Source: an uncultured Planctomycetia bacterium (lineage in GTDB: Bacteria; Planctomycetota; MHYJ01; WSZJ01; CAZYRM01). From it: a DNA stretch of 64,000 bases. Position 1 is the first letter of the stretch. The number at the start of each line of letters is the position of its first letter. The DNA is taken from contig CAZYRM010000003.1 of the NCBI GenBank assembly GCA_964649705.1, positions 29,850-93,849 of the forward strand, given 5' to 3'. This document shows, piece after piece, positions 4,665 through 51,932 of the stretch. The translations under genes were made by a program, and so were the position numbers. Under the pieces are notes generated by a model. That model searched no databases. It was not told where the DNA came from and worked only from the letters and a program-made list of their open reading frames with translations.

Positions 4665-4710
4665 CGATTCGATATCTGATATCTGACATCTGAGGTCTGA
4701 TATCAGATAT
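4665..4710. repeat. AT-rich palindromic element copy A (GATATCTGATATC family)
   Basis: cgatatctgatatctgacatctgaggtctgatatcagatatg; arms are reverse complements; member of family also at 4767, 35858, 37531, 50006, 50453. Confidence 0.75.
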
Positions 4711-4766
4711 GTTCCGGGCATCCGGCGTGGTCAGCAGTCGCCAAGGTGATCGCCAGGCCGCGCGGC

Positions 4767-4818
4767 TGGGGCCGATATCTGATATCAGACCTCAGATATC
4801 AGATATCAGATATCGGCC
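4767..4818. repeat. AT-rich palindromic element copy B
   Basis: ggccgatatctgatatcagacc tcagatatcagatatcagatatcggcc: 17-bp perfect terminal inverted repeat; lies in divergent promoter region between acyltransferase and mlaE. Confidence 0.75.
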
Positions 4819-11425: not shown

Positions 11426-11811
11426 AGGCGCGATCCCGCTCCGCGGCCCGCTGGGTCCCCGTGCTCGTGTACATGGCCGGGATCTTCTGGCTCTCGAGCA
11501 TGGAACGCCCTCGGATCCCGCTCGCCGTGAACGACAAGCTCGCCCACGTCGCGGCGTACGCGCTCCTCGGCGCGCTCGTCCTGCGGGCGGCGAACGGCGG
11601 CCTCGGCCGGCCCGCCTCGGCGGGCGCGGTCCTCTTCTCCCTCCTGCTCTCGGCCGCGTACGGCGCCTCCGACGAGTGGCACCAGTCGTTCGTCCCCGGG
11701 CGGGTCGCCTCCGCGGGCGACGTCGTCGCCGACGCCCTGGGCGCGTTCCTGGCGATCGCGGTTCTGGCCGCGTGGGGACGGCGCCCCTATAATGCCCCTG
11801 TCCAACGCTGA
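11422..11811 (+). CDS. VanZ-like family membrane protein
   Basis: GTG overlapping valS stop (GTGA); 4 TM helices, conserved DEWHQSFVPGR motif. Confidence 0.65.
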   Translation: MKARSRSAARWVPVLVYMAGIFWLSSMERPRIPLAVNDKLAHVAAYALLGALVLRAANGGLGRPASAGAVLFSLLLSAAYGASDEWHQSFVPGRVASAGDVVADALGAFLAIAVLAAWGRRPYNAPVQR

Positions 11812-20665: not shown

Positions 20666-20749
20666 CCTGAAATCAGCGCCGTGCCCTCAGCTCCATCGAT
20701 GCGTGGCGGGGTCTCGTGCATGCCGGGCGCGGCACCGAGGCGCGGCGTC

Positions 20750-21090
20750 GCCGTTACCACAGAGTACGGAGGGCACGGAGATGCCATCGTACCGATGGGC
20801 GGGCTGTGACAACTCGGCGGCCGCGGCGACCGAGGAGGCGCGCCGCGCGGAGCGCGGCGCGGCGGCGGGGACGGACAAGGGCGGGACAGAGGGCGTGGTT
20901 GCTCCTATCACGCCGTGGCCGATGAACCGCCCAGCCCTAGTCGAGGGCCCCGAGCCCGCAACCCTCTGTCCCCGCCCTGTCCGTCCCCTCCGCCCGTCGG
21001 CCTCGGGCCGACGGCCTCCTCGGCGCCGTGGCCGCTGCGTTGTACGAGCACGATGGAACGGCCGACGGCATCTCTGTGGGCTCCGTGGCT
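20750..21090. other. Structured intergenic region with nested long-range inverted repeats (candidate ncRNA or palindromic element)
   Basis: accacagagtacggagggcacggag (20757-20781) pairs with ctccgtggctctgtggt (21064-21080); inner pair gacaagggcgggacagaggg (20872-) with ccctctgtccccgccctgtc (20961-); local hairpin ggcgtg...cacgcc; no long clean ORF. Confidence 0.3.
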
Positions 21091-21168
21091 CTGTGGTGAA
21101 CTCATCGCCTGGACGACGCAGGCGATCGAGTTGCGGGCAACGCCGTCGCTCGCGCCTCGATGGCTCCC

Positions 21169-35646: not shown

Positions 35647-35859
35647 CCGAACGTGCTTCGCGCGGTCGCCAGGGCGAAGGCGGTCGGCGCGATGGTCGTC
35701 GGCTTCACCGGCGCGAAGGGCGGGAAGCTGCGCTCCCGCGTCGACATGCTGCTCGACGTCCCCTCGGACGACACGCCGCGGGTCCAGGAGTGCCACCTGC
35801 TGGCGGGGCACATCCTGTGCGAGGTCGTCGAGGCCGAGGTGTCCGGGGGGTCTCTTTGA
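35647..35859 (+). pseudogene. Duplicated 3' fragment of gmhA (71 C-terminal codons)
   Basis: Translates PNVLRAVARAKAVGAMVVGFTGAKGGKLRSRVDMLLDVPSDDTPRVQECHLLAGHILCEVVEAEVSGGSL*, ~90% identical to GmhA C-terminus encoded at 27236-27445; no upstream SIS N-terminus. Confidence 0.7.
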
Positions 35860-35946
35860 TATGTGATATCTGCTATGAGATATCTGATATGGGCATCGGG
35901 GCCTCCATATCAGATATGTCATAGCAGATATCACATATCAGATATC
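35858..35946. repeat. AT-rich palindromic element copy C (complete hairpin: 34-bp arms, 15-nt loop)
   Basis: gatatgtgatatctgctatgagatatctgatatg - ggcatcggggcctcc - atatcagatatgtcatagcagatatcacatatcagatatc; arms reverse-complementary with 1 mismatch; begins inside stop codon of gmhA fragment. Confidence 0.8.
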
Positions 35947-37530: not shown

Positions 37531-37655
37531 TATCAGATGTCAGATGTCATATCTCAGATGTCTGATATCGTCGCCCCTGACCTCCAGCCGGCCCGTTCCT
37601 GACAAGATGCGACGACATCAGACATCTGAGATATGACATCAGACATCTGATATCT
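37531..37655. repeat. AT-rich palindromic element copy D (42-bp arms separated by 35-bp spacer)
   Basis: tatcagatgtcagatgtcatatctcagatgtctgatatcgtcg ... cgacgacatcagacatctgagatatgacatcagacatctgatatc; right arm supplies last 5 codons + stop of ABC transporter. Confidence 0.75.
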
Positions 37656-50005: not shown

Positions 50006-50054
50006 GAGGCCTCCATATCAGATATCTCATAGCAGATACCACATATCACATATC
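50006..50054. repeat. AT-rich element copy E (single arm = right arm of copy C)
   Basis: gaggcctcc atatcagatatctcatagcagataccacatatcacatatc vs copy C ggggcctcc atatcagatatgtcatagcagatatcacatatcagatatc. Confidence 0.7.
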
Positions 50055-50441
50055 TTCCGAGCCCGAGGCGGGAAGGGACTTCTTCGCCGTGGCGAGGGAC
50101 TTGGAAAAGACGAGCACGAGCTCCTGACACTCGCCGACGAGACGGTTCAGGCTCTTGGCTGTCACGTAGCCCGCCCGGGTCACCAGGCGTAGCCAGTAGA
50201 GCGACTCGCGAAGCTCCTTCAGGGCGATGTGGTACTTGTGGACGAAGTCGGCCTTGCTCTCCGCAGCCCGGGCCTCCTCGTAGTTCGCGCCAGGGGAAGT
50301 CGCCGATCGCAGGAGCTGGTCTCCGCAGTGCCGCGCCGCCTTCGAATGCGGCAGCGCCTCGACCAGCTTCAGCACCCGAACGGCGAACTCCACCAGCCGT
50401 TCGCTCAGCGCCTCAGCCATCCCGTCTCTCCACGTCGACAT
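50046..50441 (-). CDS. Four-helix-bundle protein (23S rRNA intervening-sequence protein family, PF05635/TIGR02436-like)
   Basis: 131 aa; family hallmarks ...ARHCGDQLLRSATS...NYEEA... and RESLYWLRL; flanked by inverted AT-rich repeats E and F. Confidence 0.75.
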   Translation of the reverse strand: MSTWRDGMAEALSERLVEFAVRVLKLVEALPHSKAARHCGDQLLRSATSPGANYEEARAAESKADFVHKYHIALKELRESLYWLRLVTRAGYVTAKSLNRLVGECQELVLVFSKSLATAKKSLPASGSEDM

Positions 50442-50452
50442 GTCGAACCCTC

Positions 50453-50508
50453 CTATGTGATCTGGGATATCTGATATGTGATATCTGATATGTGATATTG
50501 GATATGCG
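50453..50508. repeat. AT-rich element copy F (inverted relative to E)
   Basis: ctatgtgatctgggatatctgatatgtgatatctgatatgtgatattggatatg; reverse complement resembles copy E. Confidence 0.7.
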
Positions 50509-50511
50509 CCC

Positions 50512-51237
50512 CTATCCGGCCACGACAGCCACCAGGACCTCTTCCGCCCCAGCGGCCATCAGTGCTCGCGCACACGCGTCCGCCGTCCCTCCCGTCGTCA
50601 GCACATCGTCAATCAGCAGCACCCTCCCCGTAACGGTCCCCTCGACCCGAAACGCCCCCGCCGGACTCGCCCGCCGCTTCCTGACCGGCAACCGCGCCTG
50701 TCTCGCCGTCGCCCGAACCCGCCTCAGCACCCCTGCGACGAGCGGCCTCCCGAGGGCCTCCGCCACGATCACCCCGATCTCCTCCGCCTGGTTGTAGCCT
50801 CTCTCCCTCCGCCGTGCCCGGTGCAGCGGCACGGGCACGACGACGTCGACGCGCTCCTCCCACCGTCGCGCCAGGAGCGCCTGGGCGAGCCACTCTCCCA
50901 TCGGCCTCGCCAGGAGCGGCTTTCGCAGGAACTTGAGCTCGTGCACGGCCCGCCGCGCAACGCCCTCGTAGCGGACGGCGACGACAGCTCGGCGGAACGC
51001 GAACCGCCTCCCTCGGCACGCCCGGCATCGGCGCCGCGGCCTCCCCGGCGCGCCCCTCGGCTTCCCGCACCGCGGACATGCCTCCGCGCCCACCGCGCGG
51101 ACTGCCCCCTCGCAGGATCCGCACAGATCGACTCGGGCCGTCCCGACGAGCGGCGCATCGCACACGAGGCACGCCCGCGGCCATACAACGTCGATGAGCG
51201 CGCACCCGGCGCGCTCCAGCCACCTTCCGATCCCCAT
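50512..51237 (-). CDS. comF: ComF/GntX-family phosphoribosyltransferase-domain protein
   Basis: N-terminal double CxxC zinc ribbon (CLVCDAPL...CGSCEG...CPRCGKP), C-terminal PRTase motif VLLIDDVLTTGGT. Confidence 0.75.
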   Translation of the reverse strand: MGIGRWLERAGCALIDVVWPRACLVCDAPLVGTARVDLCGSCEGAVRAVGAEACPRCGKPRGAPGRPRRRCRACRGRRFAFRRAVVAVRYEGVARRAVHELKFLRKPLLARPMGEWLAQALLARRWEERVDVVVPVPLHRARRRERGYNQAEEIGVIVAEALGRPLVAGVLRRVRATARQARLPVRKRRASPAGAFRVEGTVTGRVLLIDDVLTTGGTADACARALMAAGAEEVLVAVVAG

Positions 51238-51932
51238 GGGAGGGGCCCTCCAAGCAGAAGAAGGGCACGGGGTCTGCCAGGATCGCGCTCCGGAGTAGCA
51301 TCCCGGAACCATCAGGCGGGTAGGGAGATGCGTACTTCGCCGGAAACCGCGTCCCCAGGCAAGTGGGGCGAATTCCAGCAAGCCGCAGATCGAGGTGCTG
51401 GATTCGACGACACTCGGCGCCAGGGCAGCGAACGACAGTCGCTCGTCCGAACTGCCCGGCAGGACTCGCGGCGTTCCGTCGCGTCCGACGCTATCCTATG
51501 GGTCCGATGGGTGCCCGAGCCCGAGATCCAGATCGCAAATCCCAGATCCCGGCGCGGTCGTTGTCCGCATCCCAAGGGGCGTCACCGTCCAGACGGGGAA
51601 TTCACCACAGAGGACGCCCGGAGGCCTCTGCAGCGGTGCCGTCGGTGAAGGACAACGCCGCGGCCGCCGCGTAGTACAAGCCCCATGGATGCGTCCGATC
51701 TCGCCTCCGTGCGTCCTCTGTGGTGAAAGCAGCGCCTTGATCGTCGCGCACGTGCGAGCCTGCCGCAAGCGACGCAAGCAGCGAGTCTGTCGTGGCTTCG
51801 TTCGTCCACGCCGAAACAACTGCGCGCCGCGCAGTCGTTGAGCGATAGGGATCTCGTTGGGATCGGGAATTCGGGATCTGGACCTCGGACGCGGGCGCCC
51901 GTCCGACCTCGTTGGTCAGGCTTGACGCGACC

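What the first reader, a model, noticed from the sequence alone, without database searches (positions are those of the whole stretch)
20666..21168. 500-bp gene-free region with nested long-range inverted repeats between convergent genes
This region lies between the HEAT/TPR gene (ends 20665) and the convergent aminotransferase (ends 21169). The sequence shows two nested pairs of complementary segments: 20757-20781 with 21064-21080, and 20872-20891 with 20961-20980. It also contains a local 6-bp hairpin (ggcgtg...cacgcc). This much symmetry in 330 bp suggests a structured RNA or a large composite palindromic element rather than neutral spacer. The 12-mer TTCACCACAGAG from its outer arm also occurs in another long intergenic region (51614-51625).
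Basis: seen in the sequence. Interest (0 to 1): 0.5.

Follow-up and report, generated by a model that had tools for sequence, protein, structure and literature searches.

The report
Gene-less copy of a widespread foldback repeat
The spacer holds a 348-bp DNA palindrome that is a gene-less copy of a repeat family found in at least 14 bacterial phyla, whose full-length members carry a small nuclease gene and are built like the intervening sequences of 23S rRNA genes.

Summary
Positions 20753-21100 form one long foldback. Two ~140-nt arms match end to end (about 131 of 140 positions) around a ~68-nt loop, and the fold z-score is -13 on one strand and -12 on the other.

It is not a conserved structured RNA. 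Rfam gives nothing, and a syntenic relative has an unrelated spacer. Mismatches in stems of related gene-carrying elements show no strand bias.

It is an ORF-less member of a repeat family. The ends read TTCACCAC(A/G)GAG followed by tandem CAC(A/G)GAG units. A second copy lies at 51601-51727.

Full-length family members enclose a GxxExxY (PF13366, PD-(D/E)XK nuclease) gene. Of 74 such genes from metagenomes, 63 are flanked by these inverted arrays, against 10 of 600 random controls.

The window also holds a sister element that carries a 23S-rRNA-IVS-type four-helix-bundle gene (50046-50441), plus three ORF-less copies of it. The architecture matches the published Coxiella 23S rRNA intervening sequence.

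How the elements move is unknown, and no target-site duplication was found. Cleavage of any transcript by RNase III is inferred. I found no published description of the family.

The parts
20753..21100 (.). Element A: the whole 348-bp foldback, an ORF-less member of the TTCACCAC(A/G)GAG / CAC(A/G)GAG-array family
   Evidence: The arms align end to end with about 131 matches. The fold has 140 pairs and z -13. A profile built from independent partner ends of family members gives its best window hit at 21100 on the minus strand, E 0.046.
20753..20780 (+). Left terminal array of A: GTTACCACAGAG-TACGGAG-GG-CACGGAG. This is a degenerate terminus with one base missing relative to TTCACCACAGAG.
   Evidence: Sequence. 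By eye it is close to the Gemmataceae family member L083, TTAACCACAGAGTCACGGAGGGCACAGAG.
21072..21100 (-). Right terminal array of A, read on the minus strand: TTCACCACAGAG-C-CACGGAG-CC-CACAGAG. It has the exact family terminus and three units.
   Evidence: It matches the pattern TTCACCACAGAGNCACGGAG that was used for the genome scan.
20781..20893 (.). Inner part of the left arm. It includes a side hairpin at 20840-20860 and the inner repeat GGGGACGGACAAGGGCGGGACAGAGGG.
20894..20961 (.). Central loop of about 68 nt with small local hairpins, including GGCGTG (20892-20897, the stem-loop junction) paired with CACGCC (20909-20914)
20962..21071 (.). Inner part of the right arm, mirror image of 20781-20893. 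It includes a side hairpin at 20995-21013.
51601..51727 (.). Element B: a 127-bp ORF-less foldback with the same termini (TTCACCACAGAGGACGC ... GCGTCCTCTGTGGTGAA)
   Evidence: Fold z -6.4. Second and third best hits of the family-end profile in the window.
51501..51908 (.). Element D: a larger foldback that encloses B. Its arms are 51501-51559 and 51850-51908, built of CCAGATC-type units.
   Evidence: Arms of 59 nt, 76% complementary. Fold z -7.3.
50014..50492 (-). Element C: an ORF-bearing sister element. Inverted arrays of ATATCAGAT-type units (50014-50052 and 50454-50492) flank a four-helix-bundle gene at 50046-50441 on the minus strand.
   Evidence: TIGR02436 E 1.3e-26 and PF05635 (23S_rRNA_IVP) E 4e-19. 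Arms of 39 nt, 87% complementary. Sequence.
35857..35940 (.). Element E2: an 84-bp ORF-less foldback made of element C's array
   Evidence: Arms of 36 nt, 97% complementary. 47 of 52 positions identical to C's array and the adjoining bases.
4670..4815 (.). Element E1: a 146-bp ORF-less foldback with GATATCTGA-type units
   Evidence: Arms of 41 nt, 98% complementary.
37531..37652 (.). Element E3: a 122-bp ORF-less foldback with CAGATGT-type units
   Evidence: Arms of 44 nt, 95% complementary.

Best explanation
Element A (20753-21100) is a non-autonomous, gene-less copy of a selfish foldback DNA repeat. It sits in the spacer between two convergent genes of a Planctomycetota genome.

The family. 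Each end reads TTCACCAC(A/G)GAG followed by two to four tandem 8-9-nt units with the core CAC(A/G)GAG. The two ends are in inverted orientation, so either strand folds into a long hairpin. Full-length members are about 0.5-0.65 kb and carry one small gene in the loop, a GxxExxY protein (PF13366, PD-(D/E)XK nuclease fold). Short members (57-390 bp), like A and B, have lost the gene or never had it.

The wider class. The same build, with other unit sequences, surrounds four-helix-bundle '23S rRNA IVS protein' genes, including one in this window. It is also the build of the intervening sequences of 23S rRNA genes.

Shown here: family membership, the spread across phyla, the link to the two gene families, the lack of conservation at the orthologous site, and the absence of target-site duplications.

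Inferred: (i) the arrays are recognition sites for the element-encoded or a trans-acting protein that copies or moves the element; (ii) if read-through from either flanking gene transcribes A, the ~140-bp RNA duplex is cut by RNase III, as published for 23S IVSs, so A would in effect separate and end the two convergent transcripts.
For: Membership of A and B:
- The exact 12-mer occurs 3 times in the window against 0.14 expected, each time at the end of a palindrome.
- A profile built only from partner ends, which the scan pattern did not select, ranks the right end of A and both ends of B as the top three hits in 64 kb.

The family:
- The scan of GTDB species genomes for TTCACCACAGAGNCACGGAG stopped at its 120-locus limit. 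Hits come from Acidobacteriota, Planctomycetota, Verrucomicrobiota, Cyanobacteria, Chloroflexota, Bacteroidota, Alpha-, Beta-, Gamma- and Zetaproteobacteria, Gemmatimonadota, Chlorobi, Sumerlaeota, Desantisbacteria, Auribacterota and Kiritimatiellae.
- 75 of 128 ends have an inverted mate 57-728 nt away. The mates give the consensus TTCACCAC(A/G)GAG-R-CAC(A/G)GAG, with 0.9 or higher conservation at the core positions.
- About half of 58 viral-contig hits are also true members.

Gene link:
- The loop ORFs in L107 and L082 are GxxExxY proteins; L107 scores TIGR04256 7e-43 and PF13366 8e-42. The GxxExxY reading frame in L089 is split in two and lies beside an array of a variant unit type.
- Starting from the protein, 63 of 74 metagenome GxxExxY genes have an inverted repeat between their flanks. 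The repeats read by eye are tandem-unit arrays, most starting TTCACC(A/G)C. 45 of 74 have the 12-mer (2 mismatches or fewer) on both sides.
- Only 10 of 600 random pseudo-genes reach the same score. In all 5 viral GxxExxY loci the flanks, read by eye, also carry such arrays.

Sister class:
- The window gene 50046-50441 is a four-helix-bundle / 23S_rRNA_IVP protein flanked by inverted arrays. ORF-less copies of those arrays lie at 35857-35940 and elsewhere.
- All 6 further four-helix-bundle loci (5 distinct) show the same build.

Published parallel: the Coxiella 23S IVS has a 28-bp terminal inverted-repeat stem, tandem GACAGAT heptamers of variable number upstream of the S23p ORF, and is excised by RNase III (PMC4990558).

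Not conserved, and turnover at this spot:
- The L188 spacer is unrelated.
- In L187 the same gene is followed by an array of a different unit type, GCAAAAG.

Element-only homology: L218 and L226 are 87% identical over 405 nt, and the alignment does not extend into the flanks.
Against: - No GxxExxY gene lies in the 64-kb window, so a trans-acting partner in this genome is unproven.
- Mobility is not shown. No filled-versus-empty site pair was found and there is no target-site duplication.
- Several ORF-bearing elements sit at orthologous positions in genomes that are only 70-80% identical, which means long vertical inheritance.
- A is atypical: 348 bp with 140-nt arms against a family median near 110 bp. 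Its left terminus is degenerate and was not picked up by the end profile.
- Arms of one element resemble each other only modestly more than arms of different elements (8.4 against 5.3, p 1e-5).
- Transcription and RNase III cleavage of A are untested.
Confidence: 0.78

Rival explanations
1. A is a functional cis-acting RNA element kept by the host. It would act as a two-way transcription stop or a 3'-end stabiliser for the convergent HEAT/TPR and aminotransferase mRNAs, as REP/BIME elements do. Its repeat-family origin would then be secondary.
For: It sits exactly between two convergent 3' ends and folds very stably on both strands. Family members tend to have an A-rich left flank and a T-rich right flank; 15 of 70 have at least 6 T in the 10 nt that follow, which resembles two-way intrinsic terminators.
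Against: A has no T-run, and no terminator-like or promoter-like site was found. The syntenic relative L188 lacks it and L187 has a different element there. There is no strand-specific wobble bias in related elements. Other family members lie upstream of genes or enclose ORFs, so position is not fixed.
Confidence: 0.12
2. A is a REP/REPIN-type element mobilised by a RAYT (Y1 HUH) transposase, or a classical MITE mobilised by a DDE transposase.
For: It is palindromic, intergenic, repeated and ORF-less.
Against: The termini are TTCACC.../...GGTGAA, not the GTAG or CGTC heads of REPs. Size and arm length are far above REP size. There is no target-site duplication in 70 family members. The gene repeatedly enclosed by the same termini is a PD-(D/E)XK protein, not a Y1 or DDE transposase. 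No shared transposase-like neighbour was found in 120 8-kb loci.
Confidence: 0.05
3. The palindrome is an assembly artefact, that is, a chimeric foldback made by the assembler.
For: An independent assembly has a run of N inside the element. Many relatives lie on short contigs or at contig ends.
Against: The arms are imperfect (about 85% matched, with indels), which assemblers do not produce. Both flanks are unique genes on one contig. The independent assembly agrees over the rest of the compared stretch outside the run of N. The same family occurs in isolate genomes such as Azospirillum rugosum, Calothrix PCC 7103 and Roseomonas.
Confidence: 0.02
4. A is an integron attC-type recombination site or another site-specific recombinase target.
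For: It is an imperfect palindrome, and relatives sometimes flank single small ORFs in a cassette-like way.
Against: By eye the termini do not fit the attC core sites RYYYAAC / GTTRRRY (core sites recalled from established knowledge). Elements occur singly between housekeeping genes, not in same-orientation cassette arrays. Both ends are equivalent.
Confidence: 0.02

Closest known systems
Intervening sequences (IVS) of 23S rRNA genes, such as the Coxiella burnetii IVS with its S23p ORF (PMC4990558); also Leptospira and Salmonella
   Same: Terminal inverted repeats form a long stem. The stem-proximal region consists of tandem heptamers whose number varies (GACAGAT in Coxiella; CAC(A/G)GAG, ATCAGAT and CCAGATC here). 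The loop is either empty or holds one small ORF of the four-helix-bundle family, and one such ORF-bearing element lies in this window. The origin and mobility of IVSs are likewise unresolved.
   Different: A lies between protein-coding genes, not in helix 25 or 45 of 23S rRNA, and no rRNA was found in the window. The unit sequence and the conserved TTCACC terminus differ. The gene associated with A's subfamily is a GxxExxY PD-(D/E)XK nuclease, not S23p. RNase III processing is shown for IVSs and only inferred here.
Bacterial MITEs and foldback elements (Correia elements, enterobacterial RU-1/RU-2, Nezha)
   Same: Short, ORF-less and intergenic, with terminal inverted repeats that fold into hairpins. 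Multiple copies exist, and longer relatives with the same ends carry a gene.
   Different: There is no target-site duplication. The termini are arrays of tandem 8-9-nt units rather than a single inverted repeat. The family spans many phyla with a nearly invariant 12-20-nt terminus. The candidate partner gene is a 125-aa PD-(D/E)XK protein, not a known transposase.
REP / BIME / REPIN elements with RAYT transposases
   Same: Extragenic palindromes, often at 3' ends of genes, without target-site duplications. They can affect mRNA ends.
   Different: The terminal motif, size and internal tandem units all differ. No Y1 transposase link was seen. Individual REP families are lineage-specific, whereas this terminus is shared across phyla.
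PDDEXK_3 (PF13366) / TIGR04256 'GxxExxY protein' and TIGR02436 'four helix bundle protein' families
   Same: These are the two gene families found in the loops of full-length elements. PF13366 is listed as 'function unknown' with multiple transfers between bacterial divisions and archaea (PMC3424549).
   Different: These are protein families, not DNA elements. I found no description of their flanking inverted arrays or of ORF-less derivatives.

Membership tests
TTCACCAC(A/G)GAG / CAC(A/G)GAG-array foldback family (defined here) | Terminal 12-mer TTCACCAC(A/G)GAG at both ends in inverted orientation | tested here: met
   The right end is exact (21089-21100, minus strand). The left end is GTTACCACAGAG, one base short. 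Element B is exact at both ends.
TTCACCAC(A/G)GAG / CAC(A/G)GAG-array foldback family (defined here) | At least two tandem CAC(A/G)GAG units, 8-9 nt apart, next to the terminus | tested here: met
   The right end has three units. The left end has ACGGAG plus CACGGAG. The profile hit has E 0.046.
TTCACCAC(A/G)GAG / CAC(A/G)GAG-array foldback family (defined here) | Arms complementary, and the palindrome ends at the terminus | tested here: met
   (about 131 matches). Only 4-5 weak pairs lie outside the termini. In the family, the palindrome stops at the terminus in 40 of 70 elements.
TTCACCAC(A/G)GAG / CAC(A/G)GAG-array foldback family (defined here) | GxxExxY gene in the loop (full-length form) | tested here: not met
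   No coding-like ORF in A and no GxxExxY ORF in the window. A is therefore filed as the ORF-less form, like most family members (loop of 5-135 nt).
23S rRNA intervening sequence (IVS) | Inserted in helix 25 or 45 of a 23S rRNA gene | tested here: not met
   A lies between a HEAT/TPR gene and an aminotransferase gene. No rRNA match was found in the window.
23S rRNA intervening sequence (IVS) | Terminal inverted repeats form a long stem that contains tandem heptamers | tested here: met
   compared with the description in PMC4990558.
23S rRNA intervening sequence (IVS) | Excised from the transcript by RNase III | not testable with these tools
   No expression data. Inferred from the ~140-bp duplex.
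MITE (miniature inverted-repeat transposable element) | Terminal inverted repeats, small size, no ORF, multiple copies | tested here: met
MITE (miniature inverted-repeat transposable element) | Target-site duplication flanking the element | tested here: not met
   No excess of direct repeats of 3-9 nt in 70 elements. The flanks of A are ...GTCGCC and CTCATC...
MITE (miniature inverted-repeat transposable element) | Autonomous partner with the same ends that encodes a transposase | tested here: inconclusive
   GxxExxY-bearing elements share the ends, but the protein is not a demonstrated transposase.
REP / REPIN with RAYT | Short (20-40 nt) palindrome with a GTAG or CGTC head; RAYT gene in the genome | tested here: not met
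   The head motif and size do not fit. Presence of a RAYT gene was not tested.
Integron attC site | Core sites RYYYAAC ... GTTRRRY, same-orientation cassette array next to intI | tested here: not met
   By eye the termini do not fit the core sites, and elements are solitary. intI was not searched for.
Any Rfam RNA family | Match at the family's gathering score | tested here: not met
Intrinsic (rho-independent) terminator | G+C-rich hairpin followed by a T-run | tested here: not met
   none on either strand.

The most novel reading that the evidence does not exclude
The inverted arrays of tandem 7-9-nt units, together with the small gene they enclose (GxxExxY PD-(D/E)XK nuclease or four-helix-bundle protein), would form a so far unrecognised class of very small (about 0.5-0.65 kb) autonomous selfish elements present across bacterial phyla. 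These would spawn gene-less foldback copies such as A. They would also be the source of the 23S rRNA intervening sequences, whose origin has been open since 1990. In this reading the nuclease recognises the arrays or the cruciform they extrude and drives copying without target-site duplication.
Probability: 0.3. Interest if true: 0.8.

Novelty: new variant of a known kind. Interest (0 to 1): 0.58.

Why it matters
For this locus, the result replaces 'possible structured RNA' with a concrete identification. The spacer is occupied by a dispersed foldback repeat, and at least seven elements of the same build lie in 64 kb of this Planctomycetota genome.

More broadly, a 12-20-nt terminus kept almost unchanged in at least 14 phyla points to recognition by a conserved protein. 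It is tightly linked to PF13366, a very common family of unknown function.

The four-helix-bundle 'IVS protein' genes share the build. This ties dispersed intergenic repeats to the 23S rRNA intervening sequences and gives testable hypotheses for what these two protein families do and where IVSs come from.

There is also a practical side. These repeats break metagenome assemblies: many relatives sit on very short contigs or at contig ends, and one assembly has a gap inside element A. Their long hairpins can also be mistaken for RNA genes.

Tried and rejected
- Rfam at gathering score on the window and on 18 loci with canonical elements: nothing at the elements. There was one unrelated Acido-Lenti-1 hit in L179. 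Relaxed E-values gave only microRNA-hairpin noise.
- Full-text search for the terminal sequences returned only primers and unrelated hits. Searches for GxxExxY, PF13366, TIGR04256, TIGR02436 and PF05635 found no description of the flanks.
- Shared neighbouring protein in 120 8-kb loci: only ubiquitous ABC ATPases, no transposase.
- Target-site duplication: none.
- Flank complementarity beyond the termini is only slightly above shuffles (3.67 against 2.79 of 10), which gives weak support for insertion into pre-existing hairpins.
- Strand-specific G-U bias in stems of ORF-bearing elements: none.
- Promoter and terminator scan of the spacer: nothing.
- BLAST of a full-length element against plasmids: no match.
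- PDB sequence search with GxxExxY: no solved relative.
- Viral-contig scans for four-helix-bundle relatives: nothing. These were replaced by contig look-ups.
- About half of the first viral-contig hits were chance or coding matches in one phage gene family and were discarded.
- The loop ORFs of L109, L044 and L059 match no family.
- Orthologue comparison: L185 loses synteny after the HEAT/TPR gene, so it gives no information on the spacer.

Full report
**1. The observation**

The spacer between the HEAT/TPR gene (ends 20665) and the convergent aminotransferase gene (ends 21169) is real. It holds no ORF with coding-like composition.

When the left half (20753-20927) is aligned with the reverse complement of the right half (20928-21100), the two arms match from the outer ends inward, with about 131 identical positions. 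A loop of about 68 nt is left in the middle.

The predicted fold has 140 base pairs. A small side hairpin sits at mirror-image positions on each arm.

Folding energy is far beyond chance on both strands. RNA parameters give z -13.2 and -12.0, DNA parameters give z -10.7, and no shuffle folded as well.

The 6-bp GGCGTG/CACGCC hairpin is present.

The 12-mer TTCACCACAGAG lies at 21089-21100 on the minus strand. These two form an inverted pair, which is a second palindromic element. Three matches were found against 0.14 expected.

An independent assembly of the same population is identical over the rest of the compared stretch, but carries a run of N, with differing bases beside it, at about 20841-20855. 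The sequence of that G+C-rich side hairpin is therefore uncertain.

**2. What it is: a member of a repeat family**

The two window elements are:
- A: 20753-21100, 348 bp.
- B: 51601-51727, 127 bp.

They share only their termini.

A scan of viral contigs for the terminus plus a nearby CGGAG gave 58 hits. About half carry the same structure: TTCACCACAGAG followed by tandem units (G/A)NCAC(A/G)GAG, often with an inverted partner 85-570 bp away. The contigs range from 41% to 68% G+C.

By record title these come from:
- Acidobacteriota, Planctomycetota, Verrucomicrobiota and Kiritimatiellae
- Cyanobacteria (Lyngbya, Calothrix, Baaleninema)
- Chloroflexota
- Bacteroidota
- Alpha-, Beta-, Gamma- and Zetaproteobacteria, and 'delta proteobacteria'
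- Gemmatimonadota, Chlorobi, Sumerlaeota, Desantisbacteria and Auribacterota

Of 128 ends, 75 have an inverted mate. Element lengths run from 57 to 728 bp with a median near 110 bp. The mates were not selected by the scan pattern, yet they give the consensus TTCACCAC(A/G)GAG-R-CAC(A/G)GAG, with 0.9 or higher conservation at the core positions.

A profile built only from those mates was searched against the 64-kb window. Its three best hits are the right end of A (E 0.046) and the two ends of B.

The left end of A is degenerate (GTTACCACAGAGTACGGAGGGCACGGAG). By eye it is close to a Gemmataceae member.

Rfam has no family for these elements, in the window or in 18 loci with canonical copies.

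**3. The gene link**

A minority of family members have long loops. In L107 and L082 the loop holds a 123-130-aa ORF directly bounded by the arrays. L089 has the same gene as a split reading frame beside an array of a variant unit type. The L107 ORF is a GxxExxY protein (TIGR04256, E 7e-43; PF13366 PDDEXK_3, E 8e-42).

I then tested the link from the protein side, using 80 metagenome loci that encode GxxExxY relatives. Of 74 with enough flanking DNA:
- 63 have an inverted repeat between the upstream and downstream flanks.
- The repeats read by eye are arrays of tandem 8-9-nt units, most beginning TTCACC(A/G)C. Unit variants include CACGGAG, CACAGAG, CGCAGAG, CACGAAG, CGCAAAG and CGCCGAG.
- 45 have the 12-mer (2 mismatches or fewer) on both sides.

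Random 360-nt pseudo-genes in the genome loci reach the same score in only 10 of 600 trials. In all five GxxExxY loci from viral contigs the flanks, read by eye, also carry such arrays, some with quite different, A+T-rich units.

The full-length form of the family is therefore a 0.5-0.65-kb unit: array, then nuclease-fold gene, then inverted array. A and B are gene-less forms.

**4. A sister class in the same window, and the link to 23S rRNA intervening sequences**

I screened all held DNA for small ORFs flanked by inverted repeats. This turned up the window's own ORF at 50046-50441 on the minus strand.

That ORF is a four-helix-bundle protein (TIGR02436, E 1.3e-26; PF05635 '23S rRNA-intervening sequence protein', E 4e-19). 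NCBI annotates it as a four helix bundle protein of a Planctomycetota MAG. It is flanked by inverted arrays of ATATCAGAT-type units with 39-nt arms, 87% complementary.

Three gene-less foldbacks with the same kind of units lie at 4670-4815, 35857-35940 and 37531-37652. Their arms are 36-44 nt and 95-98% complementary. The second shares 47 of 52 positions with the array of the gene-bearing element.

Element B sits inside a larger foldback (arms 51501-51559 and 51850-51908) built of CCAGATC-type units.

Six further four-helix-bundle loci (five distinct) all show inverted unit arrays, with units of GATATCTGA, CAAATTT or GCAAAAG type. One lies between ftsW and murG.

The published description of the Coxiella burnetii 23S rRNA IVS matches this build:
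- Tandem GACAGAT heptamers of variable number lie upstream of an S23p (four-helix-bundle) ORF.
- RNase III excises the element.
- Its origin is unresolved, with mobility as one hypothesis (PMC4990558).

**5. Is A conserved or mobile?**

Three orthologues of the HEAT/TPR protein were found, at 71%, 61% and 56% identity.
- L185 (71%): synteny breaks right after the gene.
- L188 (56%): this contig keeps the convergent aminotransferase. Its ~500-bp spacer has no homology to A, no family termini, and only a 24-nt-arm hairpin of another sequence.
- L187 (61%): the contig ends about 100 nt after the gene, in an array of GCAAAAG-type units. The same spot therefore holds a different member of the wider class.

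This argues against a conserved RNA and for turnover of elements at this site. The genomes are too diverged to give a clean empty site.

No target-site duplication appears in 70 family members. In 40 of 70 the palindrome stops exactly at the TTCACC terminus.

Evidence on movement is mixed:
- Some ORF-bearing elements share 87% identity over 405 nt, and the alignment does not extend into the flanks (L218 and L226).
- Others sit at orthologous positions in genomes only 70-80% identical.
- The window's four-helix-bundle element is at the same place, downstream of a ComF-like gene, in a relative.

Movement, if it occurs, is therefore infrequent.

**6. DNA element or RNA structure?**

The fold is equally good on both strands.

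In 55 GxxExxY elements, stem mismatches are not enriched for changes that keep G-U pairs on the sense strand (115 against 125, p 0.56). Transversions are common.

Arms of one element are more alike than arms of different elements, but only modestly.

I read this as a DNA-level inverted repeat made of repeated short sites, as expected for protein recognition, rather than an RNA helix under strand-specific selection.

If A is transcribed by read-through from either flanking gene, a duplex of about 140 bp would still be a substrate for RNase III. This rests on established knowledge of the enzyme and on the IVS precedent. That step is inferred, not shown. No promoter-like or terminator-like site is present.

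**7. Verdict**

The finding is a true and highly non-random palindrome.

It is a gene-less copy of a foldback repeat family that spans many phyla. Full-length members carry a GxxExxY PD-(D/E)XK gene, and the build equals that of 23S rRNA intervening sequences.

I found no description of this family or of the gene-array link in Rfam 15 or in the searchable literature. Such a description could still exist elsewhere.

I rate it a new variant of a known kind (IVS-like or MITE-like palindromic elements). Interest is moderate to fairly high, because it links two very common families of unknown function and an old open question to a testable model.

Noticed in passing
window 50014-50492: A four-helix-bundle '23S rRNA IVS protein' gene (50046-50441, minus strand) is flanked by inverted arrays of ATATCAGAT-type units. 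It lies directly downstream of a ComF-like gene (50512-51381, minus strand; DZR_2 and Pribosyltran domains). A relative (L269) has the same gene at the same position.
   Followed up: yes
window 4670-4815, 35857-35940, 37531-37652: Three A+T-rich, nearly perfect palindromes (arms 36-44 nt, 95-98% complementary) built of GATATCTGA/CAGATGT units stand out in this 69% G+C genome. They are gene-less relatives of the four-helix-bundle element.
   Followed up: yes
window 51501-51908: A larger foldback with 59-nt arms of CCAGATC-type units encloses element B. This is a nested arrangement also seen in other genomes (L110, L122, L136).
   Followed up: partly
L001 about 11485-11510 (= window about 20841-20855): An independent assembly of the same population has a run of N and differing bases inside element A, at the G+C-rich side hairpin. 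The window sequence there may not be exact.
   Followed up: partly
L187 6170-6236: In a 61%-identical relative, the contig ends about 100 nt after the HEAT/TPR orthologue, in an array of GCAAAAG-type units. This suggests that a different element of the wider class occupies the same spot and broke the assembly.
   Followed up: partly
L188 6344-6407: The syntenic spacer of a 56%-identical relative holds a different hairpin (24-nt arms, 96% complementary: CGGAGCCCTGGAAGGGCGACCCAT...). It may be another repeat family.
   Followed up: no
L067 4417-4815: A Mariprofundaceae contig ends in a head-to-tail array of at least three 111-113-bp family elements with a period of about 126 bp. Tandem multiplication of whole elements is unexplained.
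   Followed up: no
L276 530-1500: A four-helix-bundle element lies between ftsW and murG, inside the cell-division gene cluster. It has several nested or repeated GTCAAAAG-type arrays on both sides.
   Followed up: partly
L107 1327-4133 and L193: These are orthologous loci whose flanks are 72-79% identical in DNA. The GxxExxY element between them did not align at DNA level, and the proteins are 62% identical. The element evolves faster than its surroundings or has been replaced in place.
   Followed up: no
L179 13-62: An Acido-Lenti-1 RNA (RF01687, 47.9 bits) lies in one fetched locus. It is unrelated to the element.
   Followed up: no
L109 2050-2381, L059 7409-7980, L044 7610-7965: Some family elements enclose small ORFs that match no Pfam or NCBIfam family. 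An 89-aa ORF in L109 is tightly bounded by the arrays. The cargo is therefore not limited to GxxExxY.
   Followed up: partly
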